A stretch of 64,000 nt of DNA. Source: Candidatus Woesearchaeota archaeon (GTDB taxonomy: Archaea; Nanobdellota; Nanobdellia; Woesearchaeales; DSVV01). The position numbers and the translations under genes were made by a program. The stretch spans positions 5,418-69,417 of the forward strand of contig JACRPI010000013.1 in NCBI GenBank assembly GCA_016214075.1, read 5' to 3'. Each line of letters starts with the position of its first letter. Within the stretch, counting starts at the first letter, position 1. The notes beneath the pieces were generated by a model. That model was not told the origin of the DNA. It made no database searches and worked only from the letters and a program-made list of their open reading frames with translations. Shown in pieces: positions 3,370 through 56,203 of this stretch.

Positions 3370-4487
3370 CCATATCTCTGAGCAATTCTATTAAAGAAAG
3401 GGTGAACTAAAATGGGAATTCCTGTTTGCTGATATGCTTGTTCGTAGAATGCTCTTGGAACAACTTGTGTTTGAGGAACTTCCACACGTTCACAGCCCAC
3501 AATCTTTGACCATGCGTATGGCTGTTCTCGTTTTGCTTTATAGATTATTCGTAAGGGATGATTTTTATCTTGAGCAACGTCAACGAGCGTATCAAAAACA
3601 GGATGTGCTGCTCCATTGAGAAATGCAGTAATTCCAGAATCTTTTCCAGGAGGAGTGTTTACAAAAATATCCCAATACTCTAAGACCAGTTCTGCCACAA
3701 CCCCTCGTAGTCTGGAAATTTCAGAAGAACTGGTTAAGGATCTATCAACAGCATATCCTATTGCCTCTTCTCCTTTTCGTTGAAGCGCAACTCTATACAC
3801 TTTTTGGTGAAGTCGCTTTATTGTTTTTCCAATCTTAACAGGAGCGTATGCGTAATCATCTTCGTCATCAAGAGTTACTCCAATTTCTCTGCAGAATTGT
3901 CTTGTCCCTTTAACTCTTAATGCTCTGAAACTCAATCCAGAATATTTTGCAGCTTCTTTTGTATCTCCTGCGTCTGCTGCTTTCATTGCTTTTTCTATAA
4001 AATGAGCAGAAGGTGTTTTTTCCACTGCTTTGTTTACGATCTCCTCAAGCTTTCCGTTTTCAATAGCAGGTTCTAAAGTAACTTCAGAAAAATCAATTCG
4101 TACAGTATAACTACTACACGCATTTTTGATGTGCGTATCTGTTTCTTCAAAATCTCCTTGCCCTGCAAAAATATCCGCAACCTGTTGTTGTGTCGTTCCG
4201 TAAAGAGCAAATGCTTCTCGTAAAACTCGTGTCGCTTCTCCATGTACTGATGGACTTCTTTTGAGAATAGCGGAGTAGACATCAAGAACTCTTCTGAAAT
4301 CATCTTCTTCAACTGCTACTCTTTTCATTCGTTGATACTCTGCTTCTTCAGAACGAGGGAGAGGAGCATTGTAGCGAGGAGTAGGAAAATTACTCTCCTT
4401 TAAAGGAGAGTTCTCATTCAATAAAAATTTATCACTTAAATTACCCCATAACGGAGTAATTATTTTTTGGTCATCAAATTTAGCCAT
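3357..4487 (-). CDS. Hypothetical protein (376 aa), co-oriented with the peptidase genes
   Basis: Long ORF with no motif recognisable by eye. Overlaps the M23 gene. Confidence 0.5.
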   Translation of the reverse strand: MAKFDDQKIITPLWGNLSDKFLLNENSPLKESNFPTPRYNAPLPRSEEAEYQRMKRVAVEEDDFRRVLDVYSAILKRSPSVHGEATRVLREAFALYGTTQQQVADIFAGQGDFEETDTHIKNACSSYTVRIDFSEVTLEPAIENGKLEEIVNKAVEKTPSAHFIEKAMKAADAGDTKEAAKYSGLSFRALRVKGTRQFCREIGVTLDDEDDYAYAPVKIGKTIKRLHQKVYRVALQRKGEEAIGYAVDRSLTSSSEISRLRGVVAELVLEYWDIFVNTPPGKDSGITAFLNGAAHPVFDTLVDVAQDKNHPLRIIYKAKREQPYAWSKIVGCERVEVPQTQVVPRAFYEQAYQQTGIPILVHPFFNRIAQRYGWQV

Positions 4488-5423: not shown

Positions 5424-6203
5424 TTACACCCCAACATACGAAGGAATTGCAGTACCAACCTTTTGAAATCCCTTAACCTCAATTCCCGCTTTTTGTATTC
5501 TTCTTTCAGTCTCCACATCAAGAAGTACTACTCCTTCTGTGCTCAGAACTCCTCTCAAATTGTACATCACTTTCTCTATATTTTGATCAGGAAAGTATTT
5601 TAAGATGTTTCTACAGGTAATAACATCAAAAGGAAGATCTGCTATTGTAGTAAGAGCGTCAGTATCAAGAACACTGCATTCCTCAAATCGTACTGCGTCT
5701 CGTAGTTCTGGAGCGACAGTGTATATTTCTCCGCTTTGGGGAAGATATTTTTCTTGCATCGCTATTGGCAGTATCTCATCTGTAATATTCAGGCTGTAAT
5801 ATGCTCCTTTTCTTGCGATGCGAAGTGCTGCAGGATTGACGTCAATGCCAACGATTGTTGTTTCAGCGAGTCTTCCCCCTTCTGCAAAATACATTGCGAT
5901 AGAATATGCTTCAGCGCCTGTTGAACAACCTGCGGACAAAACTCGAGGTGCTCTATTTCTCTGGCATAATGCATACACAATTTCTCCTATCATATTTCTA
6001 TTAAAAAATGTTGTCGAAGGACAAATAGAGGCAAGATTTGTTTCTCGCGATTCAGGATTTTCTGCTATTTGTTCTAATGTTGTACAGATGCTTGTAACAC
6101 AAGCAGAATCAGAAAGATCAAAGAGAATTGCTGCATCCATGCCTGTAAATCTCGAGACGAGTTCAATGGTTCGAGAACGAGTGTCTTCGTGTTGTTTTGT
6201 CAT
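5424..6203 (-). CDS. CheR-type SAM-dependent methyltransferase domain protein
   Basis: RVLSAGCSTGAEAYSIAMYF and FDVITCRNILKYF match CheR signature regions. No other chemotaxis genes occur in the window. Confidence 0.65.
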   Translation of the reverse strand: MTKQHEDTRSRTIELVSRFTGMDAAILFDLSDSACVTSICTTLEQIAENPESRETNLASICPSTTFFNRNMIGEIVYALCQRNRAPRVLSAGCSTGAEAYSIAMYFAEGGRLAETTIVGIDVNPAALRIARKGAYYSLNITDEILPIAMQEKYLPQSGEIYTVAPELRDAVRFEECSVLDTDALTTIADLPFDVITCRNILKYFPDQNIEKVMYNLRGVLSTEGVVLLDVETERRIQKAGIEVKGFQKVGTAIPSYVGV

Positions 6204-6827: not shown

Positions 6828-7098
6828 TTTTTCCTTCTTCTCTCTTTTTTTCAATAGACAAACACATTCCACAAATCGCCTTGCAAGTCCTTGAACACAA
6901 TTCATCCTTTTATTATTTTATTAAATAAAAATAATACTGAATATGATCAAGCGACTCTAGTACGCGGTAAATGGAACTATACGACAATAAAAAGAAAGGA
7001 GCCAGCATTCCAAAGGAATGCCCCCAACCTTTCCAAAACACCTAAGAAACCCGCTTATATTTAAAGGTTTCGCTATTTTATCACTATTGAGTGGTTAA

Positions 7099-7701
7099 TT
7101 AATGAAGAGAAAAGACTTTCCCCATCAATCTGCCTGTGCCATCTCTGTATGTCTCAACATGGAAGAGCTCGCTATGAGCTGCAACTCCATCACTTTGCAT
7201 AAGAAGCATATATGTTCCTTGCCTTGTGTGCTGTCTCATAAATCGCGCGACTGCAAGCTCATTATCTCCTCCATTAAAGACCGTGTCAATTATGGAAGGG
7301 CGTAATCGAAGTTGAACATACGTTCTCATGTCAAGGAAATCTCCATACGCAAGAATAGGATATGGTGATTCGTTCACAACAGGTAAAAGTCCTTCTTCTC
7401 GAAGTTTTCCAATTCGTTTTTCAGCAAGTGCATGAATGCGTCTGTCTCCTTCTACGGAGTACGTTCGCATATTATATGCTGCGCCGAGTGCTGCGACACG
7501 GCCATCGCCGCCTCCTGCGTCAAGAAACACATCCCCATACTGTAAAAATCCTTCTTCTGATAAGACATGGAAAAGATCCTTCAAATAATCAATTCTCGTT
7601 GGTCGATAGCAGCCAATCGAAGTTGCTCTGTGCCGTCTTTCTTCATCGGAAAATCTATTATAAAATCGAACAATGTCATCGATACGTCGTTGATCTATCA
7701 T
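7099..7701 (-). CDS. Hypothetical protein with a Rossmann/SAM-MTase-like glycine motif
   Basis: VFLDAGGGDGRVAALGA resembles SAM-binding motif I. Confidence 0.35.
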   Translation of the reverse strand: MIDQRRIDDIVRFYNRFSDEERRHRATSIGCYRPTRIDYLKDLFHVLSEEGFLQYGDVFLDAGGGDGRVAALGAAYNMRTYSVEGDRRIHALAEKRIGKLREEGLLPVVNESPYPILAYGDFLDMRTYVQLRLRPSIIDTVFNGGDNELAVARFMRQHTRQGTYMLLMQSDGVAAHSELFHVETYRDGTGRLMGKVFSLH

Positions 7702-7734
7702 AGAAGAAAGAATCGTATTTGAAAATATAAAGGT

Positions 7735-8385
7735 TTATAGCGATGCAAACGGGTTATACCGCGGATCGAGGAACTGCGGAAACGAACTCTTTCTCAATGC
7801 TTCTTCATGCATCTGTATAAGTGCGGGTAAAGGACATGCTTCTCTGAACGCGGTAAGATAGATTTCAGCTCGTCGAGCGCGCTCAGGATTCGTGTATGGT
7901 TCGCAGGGTGTTGGATCAATAATTCGTCCGATACATCCTCCTAAAGCAAAGAACAATTCATTGCAAATCCCTCTGTCTCTTTGTCGTTCATCCTCAATCT
8001 TTTGTCCAAAATATTTCTCCAAATATGCGTCATCCACGAGGATAAATTCATCAGGTACTGCAAGAACAGGTTCTTCTCCCTCAAAAGCAAAATAAGGTCC
8101 ATCCATTTTTCTTTTAATGGAATCATAAGGCCATTGTTCTTGTAATCTTCTGAGAACAACGCCGTGCGCGTGCGTCTTGCCAATCAATCGAATCACTGCG
8201 TCTCCTGCTGCTGTTGGTTCCGATGTAGGATAAAAAGAAGTTGCGGTCTCTCTTTGTTCAGTCGACAGATATGGAATTCCTGCAAGAGTAAGATATGCAA
8301 GAAATGGGTTTTCTTGTTTCAAAGTTTCTGTTCGAGAATAAGATCCCCCTGCAACACGTTCCAAAATATACGCATCAAGGGTCAT
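7735..8385 (-). CDS. Hypothetical protein
   Basis: 216-aa ORF with compact spacing and no recognisable motif. Confidence 0.4.
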   Translation of the reverse strand: MTLDAYILERVAGGSYSRTETLKQENPFLAYLTLAGIPYLSTEQRETATSFYPTSEPTAAGDAVIRLIGKTHAHGVVLRRLQEQWPYDSIKRKMDGPYFAFEGEEPVLAVPDEFILVDDAYLEKYFGQKIEDERQRDRGICNELFFALGGCIGRIIDPTPCEPYTNPERARRAEIYLTAFREACPLPALIQMHEEALRKSSFPQFLDPRYNPFASL

Positions 8386-8451
8386 TAAAAATGATTTTCT
8401 GTATCTCCTTCTTTTTATAGTTTTTTATTTTAATCTAAATCACTACTTTCA

Positions 8452-8655
8452 AGAGTTCCATAGGAAATGAAGGGGTTCCTACAGTAGTATACACATCAGT
8501 ATACTTAAACATTGTAATCACCACGACCAAAGAGTTCCATAGGAAATGAAGGGGTTGCCATAGCAGTATACAAAAGGCTATACTCAGCTTTACCGAGAAT
8601 AAGTGACAGTGATTGTGTGTTACTATAAAGGAGTTCCACAGGAAACAGGGGGGTT
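8452..8655. repeat. Three degenerate direct repeats: two identical 26-bp cores AGAGTTCCATAGGAAATGAAGGGGTT plus a diverged third, extending into a roughly 40-bp unit. They lie upstream of vapBC.
   Basis: Copies at 8452-8477 and 8531-8556 are identical. The diverged copy is at 8631-8655. Similarity continues 3' of each core (cctacagtagtataca vs gccatagcagtataca). Confidence 0.7.
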
Positions 8656-15541: not shown

Positions 15542-15643
15542 TTTTTTTAATTTTTTATTTTTTCATATTCACAAAGTTCACAAGTATCATTCATTTCATA
15601 TTTGAAAAATATAAATAATTTAAACTAAAATTTAAATAAAATA

Positions 15644-15695
15644 AAACACGCACCAAGAAAAGACCTATTACACAATTTAACCTTTTATTGAAAAG
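15644..15695 (+). promoter_or_regulatory. Conserved promoter-like element (copy A): AAACACGCACCAAGAAAAGACCTATTACACAATTTAACCTTTTATTGAAAAG
   Basis: Near-identical ~50-bp elements at 25774-25826 and 56153-56203. All are in + orientation, 60-95 bp upstream of + strand start codons, and end in a TATA-like TTTATT. Confidence 0.55.
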
Positions 15696-20499: not shown

Positions 20500-20904
20500 C
20501 TATTTAAGTGTTTGGGATTTGCGTCGCTGTGCTTCTTCTTTCTCAATTTTTTTCGCTTCTTTCCAGAGTCGGACTGCTTCTTCTTTTGTAAGCGGTTTGT
20601 GTTCTTCATCTAAGACATAAGGACATCGTCGCTTCATTTTTTCGTTTGCTGTTTGGAAAACATCTCGTAATGTAAAGAGTCCTTGTTCTTCAGCAAGTTT
20701 GCAGGCATGTGCACAGTTCATGATGATGTCGCCAAGTTCTTCTTTTATGTGTTCCGTGTCATTTGCTTTTGTAGCATCGAGGAGTTCTTTCGCTTCAAGA
20801 GCGATGTGCTCAGAAAATCCAGAAATATTTGCGTCACGAACCCAAGGATCTCGTGCAAGGCGTTTTTCTACGATGGCGATAAATTCTTCAAAGGTTTGTT
20901 TCAT
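20500..20904 (-). CDS. MazG-like nucleoside triphosphate pyrophosphohydrolase
   Basis: EELGDIIMNCAHACKLAE matches the MazG EExGDxL helix. Confidence 0.55.
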   Translation of the reverse strand: MKQTFEEFIAIVEKRLARDPWVRDANISGFSEHIALEAKELLDATKANDTEHIKEELGDIIMNCAHACKLAEEQGLFTLRDVFQTANEKMKRRCPYVLDEEHKPLTKEEAVRLWKEAKKIEKEEAQRRKSQTLK

Positions 20905-21045
20905 AAGAAGCTGAGTGAAGTTGCAGTATTAATAGTTATGGAAAAATGGGTTAAATCCTTAATTTTTCCGATTCAATCAATAAAAAAGTATGGGGATTCT
21001 CAAGGACAGTAAGGCGATTCTTTTTTGTTGTAAGGCAACTAACAC

Positions 21046-21130
21046 GCACTTTACTTATATTACTATTTGCCCAGCAAAACTCAAAATGTCAGGGGGACCC
21101 ATTGCCGCGGCAATGGGGTTTTATTGAAGT
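21046..21130 (+). repeat. About 85-bp repeated element (copy 1) with the AACACGCAC box and a 20-bp perfect palindrome CCCATTGCCGCGGCAATGGG
   Basis: It shares CAAAATGTCAGGGGGACCCATTGCCGCRGCAATGGGGTT plus flanks with the copy at 35653-35736. Confidence 0.6.
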
Positions 21131-21464
21131 ATAAAATAAATTAAAATGTAGGAACAAACAATGCATGAAGAAATAATTTGACTAAATCTTTATATGCCAT
21201 CAATGAATTCCTGTATAAATGACCCAAACTATTGACGACAAATTAAAAGAACAGGGATACAGAATCATCGCAACGCTTCATAGAACAGAACTGATTGATC
21301 GTGCAAAATATGAAATATTTGGTCTTTCTGAAATGGAGTATTACATTGTTCCTGTAGATATCGCGCTTAACGAAGTTTCCGCAGATAACATAAGTAAAGG
21401 ATTACATTATATTTATGTTAAAGAAGGATAAGAATAAAACATAACAAAAAATAAAAAACAACAA

Positions 21465-21983
21465 CTAAACAGTTGCTTTCAATCCTTTAATCTGTTCTCT
21501 CAAAAATTCAATAGTTCGTGTGTTGTCCTGTTGGGTCAATAGAGATCCACATTCGGGGCATTTGAATTCATGCATAGTTCCTTGTTCAAAGTCAAGGCGT
21601 ACGCACGTGTTAGAACACAAAAAGAAGCATCCTGCGTTCTTTTCTTCTCGTTCAAGGCGATCCTGCAGTTTGTGTAATTTTCCAACTTGCAATCTTCGAG
21701 AACAATCTTTCAATGATTTTTGATTATATGTCCAATAACTGATGTAATATCCTTTTTTAGAATCCTTTTTACGTTTATATTCCACCAGATTTGCGTTGTG
21801 AAGGCGGTATAATATGTTTCGCACAATATGAATTTCAGTCTTTGTTTTTTCAGAGATAATAAACTCTGAAATGTTTTTCTTTCCTTTAAGGAAGTCTACA
21901 ATTGGGAGTGCGTCTGCGCCTACTCCTTCTTCGATAATCTCATTTGCTTTTTTTGCTGTAACTCTCATTGTATTGACCCCCAA
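21465..21983 (-). CDS. tfe: Transcription factor E (TFE/TFIIE-alpha homolog)
   Basis: Winged-helix region IVRNILYRLHNANLVEYKRKKDSKKGYYISYW plus C-terminal zinc ribbon CSNTC...CPECG. Confidence 0.65.
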   Translation of the reverse strand: MGVNTMRVTAKKANEIIEEGVGADALPIVDFLKGKKNISEFIISEKTKTEIHIVRNILYRLHNANLVEYKRKKDSKKGYYISYWTYNQKSLKDCSRRLQVGKLHKLQDRLEREEKNAGCFFLCSNTCVRLDFEQGTMHEFKCPECGSLLTQQDNTRTIEFLREQIKGLKATV

Positions 21984-25739: not shown

Positions 25740-25773
25740 AATACCCCTCGGGAAAAATATACACTTACAAAAA

Positions 25774-25826
25774 AAACACGTACCAAGAAAAGACCTAAAT
25801 CACAATTCATCCCTTTATTAAAAAAT
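25774..25826 (+). promoter_or_regulatory. Conserved promoter-like element (copy B)
   Basis: AAACACGTACCAAGAAAAGACCTAAATCACAATTCATCCCTTTATTAAAAAAT, upstream of the ORF at 25912. Confidence 0.55.
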
Positions 25827-35615: not shown

Positions 35616-35652
35616 GGGTTCTTTCTTAATCACAGTAAATACTTTATAAGAA

Positions 35653-35736
35653 ACACGCACCAATTTCTCGTCTATTCGCTCAGCACCCCAAAATGTCAGG
35701 GGGACCCATTGCCGCAGCAATGGGGTTATTGTGAGT
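35653..35736 (+). repeat. About 85-bp repeated element (copy 2) with the AACACGCACC box and palindrome CCCATTGCCGCAGCAATGGG
   Basis: See copy 1. Located between the response-regulator gene and the 3' end of parA. Confidence 0.6.
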
Positions 35737-35786: not shown

Positions 35787-36539
35787 TCAAGCGTATTCTT
35801 CCGCTTCCATGACCAATTGCGCGAGTTTCTTGTAATCCATTGCGCCAGGAGATCGTTTTGCGTATTCGAAGATATCCTTCCCCTGACTTGGCGCTTCGCG
35901 AAGTTTGGAGTTCATTCTGATTGGATTTGCGACAAGTTCTTCATATCCGCGTTTAATCTCTTTGAGCGTTGAAACGCATGCTTTGCTTCGTCGGTCATAT
36001 AACGTTGGAATAACGAGCGTAATTTTGATGTCGTGATCAAAAAGTTCATTGATCTCAGAGACCGTTTGTGACATCTTTTTGAGCGCGTCAAGCGCAAGGA
36101 AGTCTGTGGAAACAGGAACAAACGCTTCGTTTGCGTACAGAAGCGCGTTGACGTTCAATAAACTTAACGATGGCGGACAATCAATAAGAATGTAATCATA
36201 ATTAAAAATTGGTTCCAACTTTCGCGCGAGAATTGTTTCTCTGCTTGTCTGACCACTCATAATAAGTTCCGCTTTCGCGAGCGAACTATCGCTGGTGATA
36301 ATGTCAAGACCAGGAGCAACGTTGACGATGCAATCATAAGGATCTGCGTCATTAATCATAAGATCGTAGGTTGTTTTTTCGTTTTGCACGCAAAGACTTG
36401 TTCCTACATTTCCCTGCGGATCAAGATCAATGACAAGAACTCGTTTTTCGTTTGCCGCGAGCGCGGTCGCGAGATTGATGGTTGTTGTTGTTTTCGCAAC
36501 ACCGCCTTTTTGATTAATAATACAAATTTTCCTCATCAA
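35787..36539 (-). CDS. ParA/MinD-family ATPase
   Basis: Deviant Walker A ICIINQKGGVAKTTTTINLA. Confidence 0.85.
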   Translation of the reverse strand: MMRKICIINQKGGVAKTTTTINLATALAANEKRVLVIDLDPQGNVGTSLCVQNEKTTYDLMINDADPYDCIVNVAPGLDIITSDSSLAKAELIMSGQTSRETILARKLEPIFNYDYILIDCPPSLSLLNVNALLYANEAFVPVSTDFLALDALKKMSQTVSEINELFDHDIKITLVIPTLYDRRSKACVSTLKEIKRGYEELVANPIRMNSKLREAPSQGKDIFEYAKRSPGAMDYKKLAQLVMEAEEYA

Positions 36540-36700
36540 ACATCACCCTCTTTTTGAAATGTTCTATATCCTGTATCACTGTCATCCGTATGGATGTGAG
36601 ATGTATGGAATTTGCAACACGGGCAAAGTATATAAAGTTTTTTGTTTGACGACGGGGAATTTTCTCCAAAAAATTTATATTGTTCAAGAGAATAATAAAC

Positions 36701-36813
36701 GGTGAGGCGGGGACTTGAACCCCGATACGCCCGCTAAGACGAAATGGCTCTCTGAAGCCCATCTTATCGATGGGTTTCATCAGGCCATCGCAATACCTTT
36801 ATGCGACCTCACC
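36701..36813 (-). tRNA. Intron-containing tRNA (about 113 nt), identity uncertain. A canonical bulge-helix-bulge model gives a 28-nt intron (36750-36777) at 37/38 and anticodon GAU (Ile). A long variable region, G73 and G30:C40 would instead fit a class-II (Ser-like) tRNA.
   Basis: Manually folded. Acceptor stem GGUGAGG/CCUCACC, perfect T-arm CGGGG-UUCAAGU-CCCCG, D-arm with GG. The putative BHB has central helix CUGA/UCAG flanked by 3-nt bulges UGA and AGA. 19 nt lie between the anticodon stem and T-stem. Confidence 0.6.
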
Positions 36814-36859
36814 AATATTCTTGACAATTTTTAAGACTGGACTAGTTAAATAATTCTTC

Positions 36860-36966
36860 GTCGAGTTTTCCGAAAATCTTACGGATATTCCGGAGAATTT
36901 TCGGATAAAGCGAATATGTTTCGGCATTTTATTTTTTTCTGCTATTTTTTTCGGATAATCCGAAAG
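36860..36966. promoter_or_regulatory. Cluster of TTTCGGATA / TCCGAAA motifs, including the inverted repeat TTCGGATAATCCGAA, upstream of gltX
   Basis: Motif occurrences at 36865-36876, 36881-36896, 36897-36909 and 36947-36966. Related inverted repeats ATCGGATAG...CTATCCGAT at 30641-30676 and TTTTCGGATAT at 45584-45594. Confidence 0.45.
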
Positions 36967-37037
36967 GATAATATATGATGAAATACTTTTTAAACAACCT
37001 CAATTAACAAAAATAGAGTAAACTAGGTGTAGTATCC

Positions 37038-56042: not shown

Positions 56043-56152
56043 TCTCTGGAATAATGCGTTTTGGTATAAATTGCTTGTTGTTTTTTTTGACATACATAAG
56101 ATTTCAGCGTATAAAACGCATGCTAACAAAATTATAAACGCATAGCAACCTA

Positions 56153-56203
56153 AAACACGCACCAGCAAAACCAAATACACAATTCATCCTTTTATTATTC
56201 ATT
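56153..56203 (+). promoter_or_regulatory. Conserved promoter-like element (copy C)
   Basis: AAACACGCACCAGCAAAACCAAATACACAATTCATCCTTTTATTATTCATT, upstream of the YbjQ-family gene at 56257. Confidence 0.55.

What the first reader, a model, noticed from the sequence alone, without database searches (positions are those of the whole stretch)
21046..21130. Two copies of an ~85-bp element with a perfect 20-bp palindrome, related to the promoter-like family
Both 21046-21130 and 35653-35736 have the following layout. An AACACGCAC box comes first, then ~25 variable bp, then GCyCAGCA...CAAAATGTCAGGGGGACCCATTGCCGC(G/A)GCAATGGGGTT, then a TTATTG TATA-like tail. The core CCCATTGCCGCGGCAATGGG is a perfect palindrome (9-bp arms). 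The elements share both ends with the three-copy promoter-like element, but a GC-rich hairpin replaces the middle. Copy 1 precedes a small 70-aa ORF. Copy 2 has no downstream + strand ORF. Candidate functions are a small structured ncRNA, a dimeric-regulator operator, or a miniature mobile repeat.
Basis: seen in the sequence. Interest (0 to 1): 0.55.

Follow-up and report, generated by a model that had tools for sequence, protein, structure and literature searches.

The report
Archaeal mosaic intergenic repeat family
The two hairpin elements are real members of a large family of modular, non-coding repeats that sit between genes in a group of uncultured archaea, resembling bacterial REP/BIME or MITE repeats, and they mostly point the same way along the chromosome.

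Summary
Both copies share an identical 39-nt core (0 expected by chance) and an AACACGCAC box. Copy 1 is longer than reported (about 20975-21127).

They are not an isolated duplication. Pattern scans found at least 77 hairpin-type copies in the window, one related MAG and one metagenome. The window also holds four, not three, copies of a hairpin-less sister type.

The family is a mosaic of modules:
- an A/T box with GGGGATTC/GGCGATTC units,
- the ACACGCACC box,
- a 3' module, either TGTCAGGGGGACCC-hairpin-GGGG or ACACAATTCATCC,
- a TTTTATT tail.

The hairpin foot is fixed and its top varies freely: 37 distinct stems, 351 Watson-Crick pairs and 2 G-T.

Copies are always intergenic and not coding, with no significant Rfam match. 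They lie mostly beside gene 3' ends. They are co-oriented along contigs (48 of 60 neighbouring pairs) and with a strand-composition asymmetry that does not depend on gene direction.

Many copies sit at orthologous sites and are conserved about as well as coding DNA, yet whole elements and single modules are gained or lost.

Best reading: a REP/BIME- or MITE-like dispersed repeat whose 3' end resembles a terminator. The mobilising enzyme and any expression are untested. A small-RNA gene family remains a live rival.

The parts
20975..21127 (+). Copy 1, full composite element (5' 'P' module plus core plus hairpin plus tail)
   Evidence: nhmmer with the family profile, E 8e-28. 90.9% identical over 153 nt to the syntenic copy in the related MAG (L014), while the DNA on both sides is unalignable.
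20975..21022 (+). P module of copy 1: A/T box (CAATCAATAAAAAAGTAT), GGGGATTCTCAAGGAC and GTAAGGCGATTC
   Evidence: Conserved in 24 'type A' copies. The module is present or absent independently of the core at orthologous sites. It also occurs alone upstream of genes.
21041..21049 (+). AACACGCAC box of copy 1
   Evidence: Hallmark of both the hairpin and the short family.
21050..21086 (+). Spacer of copy 1, holding an ATTTGCCCAGCAA unit. This is a repeated family unit whose consensus (AATCGCC...) is the reverse complement of GGCGATT; here ATTTGCC matches it only in part.
   Evidence: The same arrangement is kept in the orthologues L014 and L042.
21087..21100 (+). TGTCAGGGGGACCC, the fixed 5' flank and foot of the hairpin (copy 1)
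   Evidence: Present in the 77 copies collected at up to 1 mismatch. This invariance is partly by construction of the search.
21098..21117 (+). Hairpin of copy 1 (CCCATTGC-CGCG-GCAATGGG)
   Evidence: Fold. Compensatory changes across copies: 96.3% of cells paired, 12 cells changed on both sides, 0 of 500 shuffles as high. 37 distinct stems.
21119..21126 (+). T-rich tail TTTTATTG of copy 1
   Evidence: The same kind of T-run directly follows five of the six tRNA genes examined in this window and the related loci.
35634..35733 (+). Copy 2, core-only element with no P module. Box at 35652-35660, TGTCAGGGGGACCC at 35694-35707, hairpin at 35705-35724, tail TTATTGTG at 35726-35733.
   Evidence: nhmmer E 2e-14 for 35634-35730; sequence. 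It starts about 20 nt after the stop codon of the response-regulator gene, between convergent genes.
6856..6917 (+). Short-type sister element (degenerate box, AATCGCC unit, ACACAATTCATCC, TTTTATT)
15640..15691 (+). Short-type sister element
25759..25821 (+). Short-type sister element
56134..56199 (+). Short-type sister element

Best explanation
The two elements are copies of a lineage-specific, non-coding, mosaic interspersed repeat of an uncultured archaeal clade. It is an archaeal counterpart of bacterial REP/BIME or MITE-type repeats.

Shown:
- The family is built from interchangeable modules.
- Its 3' module is a hairpin with a fixed C-G foot, a fixed 5' flank and a freely varying top, followed by a T-run.
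- Copies are intergenic and polar along the chromosome.
- Many copies are kept at orthologous sites, while elements and modules are also gained and lost.

Inferred:
- The family spreads and is homogenised at the DNA level. A single-stranded DNA hairpin intermediate tied to replication is the likely route, as in IS200/IS605 and REP systems.
- When transcribed from an upstream gene or from its own P module, the hairpin plus T-run ends and protects the transcript.
For: Copy number:
- 13 exact pattern matches in one MAG and 51 in 46 metagenome loci, all but one locus from a single metagenome.
- 77 hairpin modules in the DNA held, plus short-type copies.

Mosaic build and separate gain or loss of modules.

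Hairpin:
- 37 distinct stems with 351 Watson-Crick, 2 G-T, 4 C-A and 1 other pair.
- Covariation beats all 500 shuffles and all slid controls.
- The near absence of wobble pairs, symmetric between the strands, fits a DNA-level hairpin better than an RNA-only one.

No other conserved helix. No conserved ORF: the 47-codon frame through copy 1 loses both its start and its stop in L014.

Polarity:
- 48 of 60 neighbouring copies on a contig point the same way, p = 3e-6.
- The element strand is A>T at third codon positions in genes of both orientations, +0.069 and +0.104.

Mobility or turnover:
- The element is present in L012 and L039 but absent at the orthologous site in L060.
- Synteny breakpoints fall at elements.
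- Nested-insert copies are 98-100% identical at different loci.

Context: 92 flanking gene ends are 3' ends against 51 that are 5' ends. All double-hairpin copies lie between convergent genes.

Tail: the T-run equals the run after tRNA genes.
Against: - No transposase was found. The 540 kb held contains no protein with three or more same-genome copies and no HUH-Y1 motif by a crude regular expression. The genomes are only partly held.
- No target-site duplication or conserved target was seen. The one clean presence/absence case includes 60 nt of non-family sequence, so it could be a deletion.
- Orthologous copies are conserved about as well as coding DNA (85-95%). That argues for function or gene conversion rather than plain selfish spread.
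- 42% of core-only copies are not downstream of a same-strand gene, so a simple terminator role does not cover them.
- The GC-skew part of the strand asymmetry is weak.
- No expression data exist.
Confidence: 0.5

Rival explanations
1. A family of paralogous small non-coding RNA genes. The P module supplies a promoter (an A/T box followed by GGGGATTC), transcription starts near GTAAGGCGATTC, and the hairpin plus T-run is the terminator. The product would be an A/C-rich RNA of about 110 nt carrying the invariant ACACGCACC.
For: - The P module resembles two of the six tRNA promoters examined, where a TATA box is followed directly by GGATTC or GGCGATTC about 21-26 nt before the mature 5' end.
- P modules also precede protein genes at 40-60 nt.
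- The tail equals the tRNA-gene terminator.
- Sequence is conserved at orthologous sites.
- Short variable segments lie between fixed boxes.
Against: - More than half of the hairpin copies lack P, and these show no TATA at a fixed distance from the box.
- Only one conserved helix exists, and it has almost no G-U pairs.
- No significant Rfam match.
- The window's two tRNA genes lie on the opposite strand to the elements, so the polarity is not a general property of RNA genes here.
- No exact complement of ACACGCACC exists in the window.
Confidence: 0.22
2. Purely cis-acting punctuation. The elements are standardised terminators and 3'-end protective structures (core) and promoters (P). They would be kept by selection and copied by recombination, with no dedicated mobility mechanism.
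For: - They prefer gene 3' ends.
- Double-hairpin copies lie only between convergent genes and fold into a four-way junction with z = -6.
- The order terminator-like module, then P, then gene occurs.
- The tail is as after tRNAs.
- Orthologous copies are conserved.
Against: - Termination needs no 100-nt conserved unstructured region and no ACACGCACC box.
- This does not explain chromosome-wide polarity that is independent of gene direction.
- 16 of 38 core-only copies face a divergent upstream gene.
Confidence: 0.18
3. Recombination sites of an integron-like or other site-specific system. The hairpin would play the role of an attC-like folded site with a variable top, next to which small genes are inserted.
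For: - The hairpin has a fixed base and a top that ranges from 3 nt to a branched 170-nt insert.
- All copies share one orientation.
- At copy 1, three genomes carry three different gene contents beside the element.
Against: - Spacing is 5-30 kb, between housekeeping genes of both orientations, not in cassette arrays.
- The tail does not fit GTTRRRY.
- Most orthologous comparisons show no gene turnover next to the element.
- No integrase was seen.
Confidence: 0.05
4. Operator for a dimeric DNA-binding regulator, or a chance duplication.
For: Copy 1 contains a perfect 20-bp palindrome.
Against: The stem sequence differs among copies while pairing is kept. Chance is excluded by 0 matches in 100 shuffles and by dozens of further copies.
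Confidence: 0.02

Closest known systems
Bacterial REP sequences, BIMEs and REPINs (mobilised by RAYT / TnpA-REP)
   Same: - High-copy extragenic hairpins with a fully paired stem, a base of three G-C pairs and a conserved short sequence at the 5' foot.
- Combined with other conserved motifs into mosaic elements.
- Found mainly between convergent or co-directional genes, downstream of coding regions.
- Inverted doublets occur.
- Vertically persistent.
(Features as described in PMC3733652 and PMC6006769; here.)
   Different: - No GT[AG]G or CGTC tag.
- Elements are longer (50-190 nt) with a large unstructured conserved part.
- Strong same-strand polarity along contigs.
- The host is an archaeon, where PMC6006769 found only the IS200 subclass of Y1 transposases.
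- No RAYT-like gene was found in the DNA held.
IS200/IS605 ends and their miniature derivatives (PATE-type MITEs)
   Same: - A subterminal hairpin recognised by structure.
- No terminal inverted repeats or target duplication in most copies.
- Orientation tied to replication direction, as expected for insertion into the lagging-strand template (mechanism as reviewed in PMC6006769; here).
   Different: - Only one hairpin in most copies.
- No conserved target tetranucleotide was identified.
- No tnpA or tnpB nearby.
- Copies are old and positionally conserved.
Classical MITEs with terminal inverted repeats (for example Correia/NEMIS, ERIC)
   Same: - Small non-coding dispersed repeats that can carry terminator-like or promoter-like ends.
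- The double-hairpin 'type B' copies have inverted ends of about 45 nt.
   Different: - Most copies are one-ended.
- No target-site duplication was seen.
- The build is modular rather than fixed-length.
Integron attC sites
   Same: Structure is conserved rather than sequence. The terminal structure is variable and the orientation is uniform.
   Different: No arrays, no GTTRRRY core, no integrase, and the neighbours are housekeeping genes.
Terminators of archaeal stable-RNA genes (helix end followed by an oligo-T run)
   Same: A G+C-rich helix end is followed directly by TTTTATT, as after the tRNA genes of these genomes.
   Different: An ordinary terminator has no conserved 50-150 nt upstream part and is not a repeat family.

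Membership tests
REP / BIME / REPIN | Short, fully paired hairpin (7-20 bp, loop 2-5 nt) present in many extragenic copies | tested here: met
   70 hairpins of 7-16 bp with loops of 3-6 nt, all intergenic.
REP / BIME / REPIN | GT[AG]G (or CGTC) tetranucleotide at the foot of the hairpin | tested here: not met
   The foot is ...TGTCAGGGGGA|CCC; there is no GTAG, GTGG or CGTC tag.
REP / BIME / REPIN | A cognate single-copy RAYT (Y1 HUH) gene flanked by the repeats | tested here: inconclusive
   No HUH...Y motif was found by regular expression in the six-frame ORFs of 540 kb. The genomes are only partly held and the test is crude.
REP / BIME / REPIN | Mosaic combination with other conserved motifs; inverted doublets | tested here: met
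   P module, GGCGATTC/AATCGCC units, box, two alternative 3' modules and nested inserts. Inverted pairs about 97 bp apart occur in L009, L017, L019 and L028.
IS200/IS605-derived miniature elements | Strand bias linked to replication direction | tested here: inconclusive
   Co-orientation in 48 of 60 neighbouring pairs, and a gene-independent A>T asymmetry on the element strand. No origin or terminus is mapped, and GC skew is weak.
IS200/IS605-derived miniature elements | Hairpins at both ends in the same orientation, a fixed target and cleavage tetranucleotides, and tnpA/tnpB partners | tested here: not met
   Most copies have one hairpin, and where there are two they are inverted. No conserved target was seen at the L012/L060 boundary. 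No protein with three or more same-genome copies.
TIR-type MITE | Terminal inverted repeats plus target-site duplication | tested here: not met
   Inverted ends occur only in the four type B copies. No duplication was recognisable.
Integron attC | R'' / R' core sites (RYYYAAC ... GTTRRRY) and arrays of cassettes next to intI | tested here: not met
   The tail is GTT(T/A)TTAT or GTATTAT. Copies are 5-30 kb apart among housekeeping genes.
Any curated RNA family (Rfam 15) | Covariance-model match | tested here: not met
   No hit below E about 0.03, and every hit is far under its gathering score. The whole-window gathering scan carries little weight because it also missed two real tRNAs.
Archaeal promoter (TATA box) for the downstream gene | TATA about 25-30 nt upstream of the transcription start or leaderless ATG | tested here: not met
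   The tails lie 61-138 nt from same-strand ATGs, apart from one uncertain 23-nt ORF call. Where checked in the window, those genes have their own TATA at about -30. About half of the downstream genes are on the other strand.

The most novel reading that the evidence does not exclude
These elements could be the first described archaeal equivalent of a REP/REPIN-type system. They would be hairpin-bearing mosaic repeats copied through single-stranded DNA at the replication fork by an enzyme not yet identified (not a recognisable RAYT), hence polar along each replichore. The host would have co-opted them as standard promoter (P) and terminator (hairpin plus T-run) punctuation, or as about 100 paralogous small-RNA genes.
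Probability: 0.25. Interest if true: 0.7.

Novelty: new variant of a known kind. Interest (0 to 1): 0.5.

Why it matters
Dispersed structured repeats are well studied in bacteria (REP/BIME, REPIN-RAYT, MITEs). They are much less studied in archaea, and the one survey I read (PMC6006769) found no REP-associated transposase classes there.

This family combines four features that together give a tractable case for asking how such repeats arise, spread and are domesticated in archaea:
- structure-only conservation of a hairpin,
- modular promoter-like and terminator-like parts,
- positional conservation across species,
- chromosome-wide polarity.

The family also marks synteny breakpoints and gene-content differences between related genomes. 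It would confound annotation by producing spurious small ORFs and false 'promoters'.

Tried and rejected
- Protein-coding reading. A 47-codon ORF runs through copy 1 (ATG at 20992 to TGA). In the syntenic L014 copy the start is ATA and the stop is lost, and hairpin variants differ by 4 nt. Rejected.
- Known RNA families. Nothing significant.
- Further conserved helices in the 5' 100 nt. RNAalifold finds none. A GGCGATTC/GAATCGCC pairing idea is not consistently supported.
- Promoter for downstream genes. Rejected on distance and orientation.
- A TATA at a fixed distance upstream of the ACACGCACC box in copies without P. No signal.
- Prediction that core-only copies always follow a same-strand gene, if they were pure terminators. 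Not borne out: 22 against 16.
- Viral origin. Only 3 chance hits in high-GC viral contigs.
- Associated transposase. No protein with three or more same-genome copies and no HUH-Y1 motif. The genes lying between inverted copies, read by eye, look like toxin-antitoxin pairs and ordinary genes rather than transposases.
- Replication-origin (ORB) and C/D or H/ACA box readings. Considered by eye and dropped: no matching boxes, and there are far too many dispersed copies.
- Exact-protein look-up of neighbouring genes. This gave only one 5-kb contig and no new context.

Full report
**1. The observation**

The sequence is as described. The 39-nt core CAAAATGTCAGGGGGACCCATTGCCGC(G/A)GCAATGGGGTT occurs at 21082-21120 and 35689-35727 on the + strand. 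It occurs nowhere else in the window at up to three mismatches, and none of 100 shuffles gave a match. AACACGCAC lies at 21041 and 35652, and also at 15645 and 56154 (4 found, 0.29 expected).

In copy 1 the palindrome has 10-nt arms. As a hairpin it is an 8-bp stem with a 4-nt loop, and the single difference in copy 2 falls in the loop.

The related hairpin-less repeat has four copies in the window, not three. All six elements are on the + strand.

**2. Host**

The window encodes:
- a TFIIE-alpha/TFE homologue, an HTH_3-domain protein that by eye looks like archaeal MBF1 (zinc ribbon plus HTH), a DEAD-box helicase and a response-regulator receiver protein;
- FtsZ;
- a class I Glu/Gln-tRNA synthetase;
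- purine-synthesis enzymes and a type IA topoisomerase.

Genes carry cTTTATAwa boxes about 30 nt upstream of the ATG. This is an archaeon with TATA-type promoters and short or absent leaders. The related genome found below is labelled by its depositors "uncultured Methanosarcinales archaeon". I could not verify that placement.

**3. A large family, not a duplication**

One scan of species-representative genomes with ATGTCAGGGGGACCC-N10-20-GGGGTT gave 13 matches in a single MAG (CAYLMH01) and one chance hit elsewhere. One metagenome scan with ACACGCAC-N10-40-TGTCAGGGGGACCC gave 51 matches in 46 loci. All but one locus come from one metagenome, Ga0247727, on contigs of up to 257 kb.

Counting TGTCAGGGGGACCC at up to one mismatch, the DNA held contains 77 hairpin modules and more than a dozen short-type copies. 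A viral-contig scan gave only chance hits.

A profile search of the window finds exactly the two hairpin copies (20975-21127 and 35634-35730) and the four short copies.

**4. Anatomy**

The family is a mosaic. The commonest full form ('type A', 24 aligned copies) reads, joined without gaps:
- AAATAAATAATAAAGACAT
- GGGGATTCTCAAGGACT
- GTAAGGCGATTCAAGCAGCAGCAA
- GGCGAATATTTGCTCAGCAGCAAAG
- AAAAT, then ACACGCACC
- AGCAAAAGCCAAAA
- TGTCAGGGGGACCC, the hairpin, GGGG
- T(T/A)TTAT

Window copy 1 is of this type, with the box placed before an ATTTGCCCAGCAA unit. Copy 2 is a core-only form.

Other observations on the build:
- The first roughly 110 nt (the 'P' module) are an independent unit. They are present in L010 and precisely absent from the orthologous L055 copy. 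They also occur alone, sometimes just upstream of protein genes.
- The 3' module is either the hairpin type or ACACAATTCATCC (the short family). Both follow the same box and linker and end in TTTTATT.
- Four 'type B' elements carry a second terminal module, inverted, at the left end. They fold into a four-way junction (z about -6 for L009).
- In six copies a further structured insert of about 100-190 nt (GAGCGTACGACC...GGCGAAAGAATTG, with optional nested small hairpins) sits inside the hairpin or after the box.

**5. The hairpin**

Across 70 hairpins there are 37 distinct sequences. The foot (CCC / GGG) and the next three pairs are nearly constant. The inner stem and loop vary freely, and stems range from 7 to 16 bp.

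Of 358 stem positions, 351 are Watson-Crick, 2 are G-T, 4 are C-A and 1 is another mismatch.

On a 24-sequence alignment, 96.3% of cells pair, 12 cells have changes on both sides, and no shuffle or slid control comes close.

Pairing is therefore selected. The near absence of wobble pairs, and their symmetry between the strands, is what a hairpin read at the DNA level would show (either strand, or single-stranded DNA). It is less typical of an RNA-only helix.

RNAalifold finds no other conserved helix in the 5' 100 nt. Rfam gives nothing significant. The whole-window gathering scan is uninformative because it also missed two genuine tRNAs.

The 47-codon frame through copy 1 is not kept in the orthologue.

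**6. Context**

Every copy is intergenic. The gene on the 5' side is on the same strand in 51 cases and on the other strand in 22. The gene on the 3' side is on the other strand in 41 cases and on the same strand in 29. Overall, gene 3' ends flank the elements 92 times and gene 5' ends 51 times. All type B copies lie between convergent genes.

There is no consistent relation to a downstream gene. Where a downstream gene is on the same strand, the window cases checked have their own TATA box.

The T-run that ends the elements is the same kind of run that follows the acceptor stem of five of the six tRNA genes examined. Examples are ttttattaacc, tttatttcag and GTTTATTATTC. The 'TATA-like tail' is therefore better read as a terminator signal.

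The P module's A/T box followed by GGGGATTC resembles two of the six tRNA promoters examined: TTTATAAAATA-GGATTC... and TATTTAAATAATT-GGCGATTC..., each 21-26 nt before the mature 5' end. This makes a promoter role for P plausible but unproven.

Core-only copies show no TATA at a fixed distance from the box.

**7. Polarity**

On contigs with several copies, 48 of 60 neighbouring pairs point the same way (p = 3e-6). This includes all six in the window, even though four of those six face a divergent upstream gene.

The element strand is A-rich over T at third codon positions both in genes on that strand (+0.069) and in genes on the other strand (+0.104). This asymmetry therefore cannot come from transcription direction. 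The GC component is small. That is the signature expected if orientation follows replication direction. Without a closed genome, the origin and terminus are not mapped.

**8. Evolution**

Many copies are at orthologous sites in the MAG, the metagenome genome and the window. The pairs are L003/L021, L009/L028, L010/L055, L011/L059 (two copies), L012/L060, and window copy 1 with L014 and L042.

In most of these pairs the cores are 84-95% identical, and lower where a unit is inserted. That is comparable to the coding flanks, whereas the next 80 nt of spacer are 38-81% identical.

There is also turnover:
- The L012/L039 copy has no counterpart at the orthologous L060 site.
- P and 17-nt units come and go.
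- Orthologous hairpins often carry different tops.
- Synteny breaks fall at elements (L008 against L017/L041).
- The nested inserts are 98-100% identical at different loci.

Around copy 1 three genomes differ in gene content. The MazG-like gene is missing in the MAG. The 70-aa ORF is found only in the window. A 161-aa ORF on the other strand is found only in the MAG. The metagenome genome has nothing between the element and the TFE gene.

**9. Interpretation**

The data establish a lineage-specific, mosaic, polar, non-coding repeat family. The closest known kinds are bacterial REP/BIME/REPIN elements and IS200/IS605-type miniature elements. The shared features are:
- a fully paired hairpin with a G-C foot and a fixed 5' flank,
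- mosaic association with other motifs,
- a preference for the 3' side of genes,
- inverted doublets,
- long vertical persistence,
- a link to the replication strand (for the IS200/IS605 kind).

Feature descriptions are taken from PMC3733652 and PMC6006769.

Membership fails on the defining tag (GT[AG]G or CGTC). It is open on the enzyme: no HUH-Y1 motif and no multi-copy protein were found in the 540 kb held, and PMC6006769 saw only the IS200 subclass in archaea.

I therefore file it as a new variant of a known kind. It works like a REP/BIME- or MITE-type repeat with a terminator-like end, and the propagation mechanism is inferred, not shown.

The main rival is a family of small RNA genes, with a P promoter, an RNA of about 110 nt and a hairpin terminator. 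The P/tRNA-promoter resemblance keeps it alive. The many P-less copies and the lack of RNA-type covariation weaken it.

An operator is contradicted by the data and an attC-like site is poorly supported.

**10. Verdict**

It is not an artefact, and it is not categorically new. Interest is moderate. The polarity, the structure-only hairpin and the archaeal host make it worth a follow-up with transcript data and closed genomes.

Noticed in passing
window 36700-36813 (-): An intron-containing tRNA gene (Rfam tRNA, 44.7 bits) that ARAGORN did not call. The whole-window Rfam gathering scan also missed it. The 88-aa ORF at 36514-36780 that overlaps it is therefore probably spurious.
   Followed up: yes
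window 36849-36969; L012 6954-7075; L038 about 4080-4110: A 120-nt block of TTCCGAAAA / TTTTCGGATAATCCGAAAGG-type palindromes. It is 84% identical between the window (beside the tRNA and the GluRS gene) and the MAG (beside a 159-aa gene that I read by eye as a possible Lrp/AsnC-type regulator; Pfam gave no match). It looks like a shared regulator-binding region and lies next to family elements in two genomes.
   Followed up: partly
window 20500-21465, compared with L014 5100-6270 and L042 2900-3320: Gene content beside copy 1 differs in three related genomes. The MazG-like gene is absent from the MAG. The 70-aa ORF (21219-21431) is found only in the window. A 161-aa ORF on the other strand is found only in the MAG.
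   Followed up: partly
L016 about 1-190, L019 about 5540-5740, L021 about 7660-7870, L032 about 4080-4260, L034 about 3626-3800, L038 about 3830-4020: A structured insert of about 100-190 nt (GAGCGTACGACCGAACG...GGCGAAAGAATTG) sits inside the element hairpin or after the box. It has further small perfect hairpins nested in its own loops. Copies at different loci are 98-100% identical. No Rfam match in the one copy tested (L032).
   Followed up: partly
L008 compared with L017/L041 (contig Ga0247727_10000752): The two flanks of one MAG element map 13 kb apart, one of them inverted, in the metagenome genome. Each maps next to an element copy, so a rearrangement breakpoint lies at the repeats.
   Followed up: partly
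window 8451-8505 and 8530-8584: Two copies, 84% identical, of a 55-nt direct repeat (AAGAGTTCCATAGGAAATGAAGGGGTT...) with starts 79 nt apart, in an intergenic stretch. Unrelated to the family studied here.
   Followed up: no
L034 2761-3281 (-); L020 3020-3687 (-): By eye, a RelE-like toxin with an antitoxin, and a PIN (VapC)-like protein with an AbrB-type antitoxin. Both pairs lie between oppositely oriented family elements. Not checked with Pfam.
   Followed up: no
window, whole: The whole-window Rfam gathering scan returned no match at all, although the window holds two tRNA genes. Its negative result should not be relied on.
   Followed up: yes
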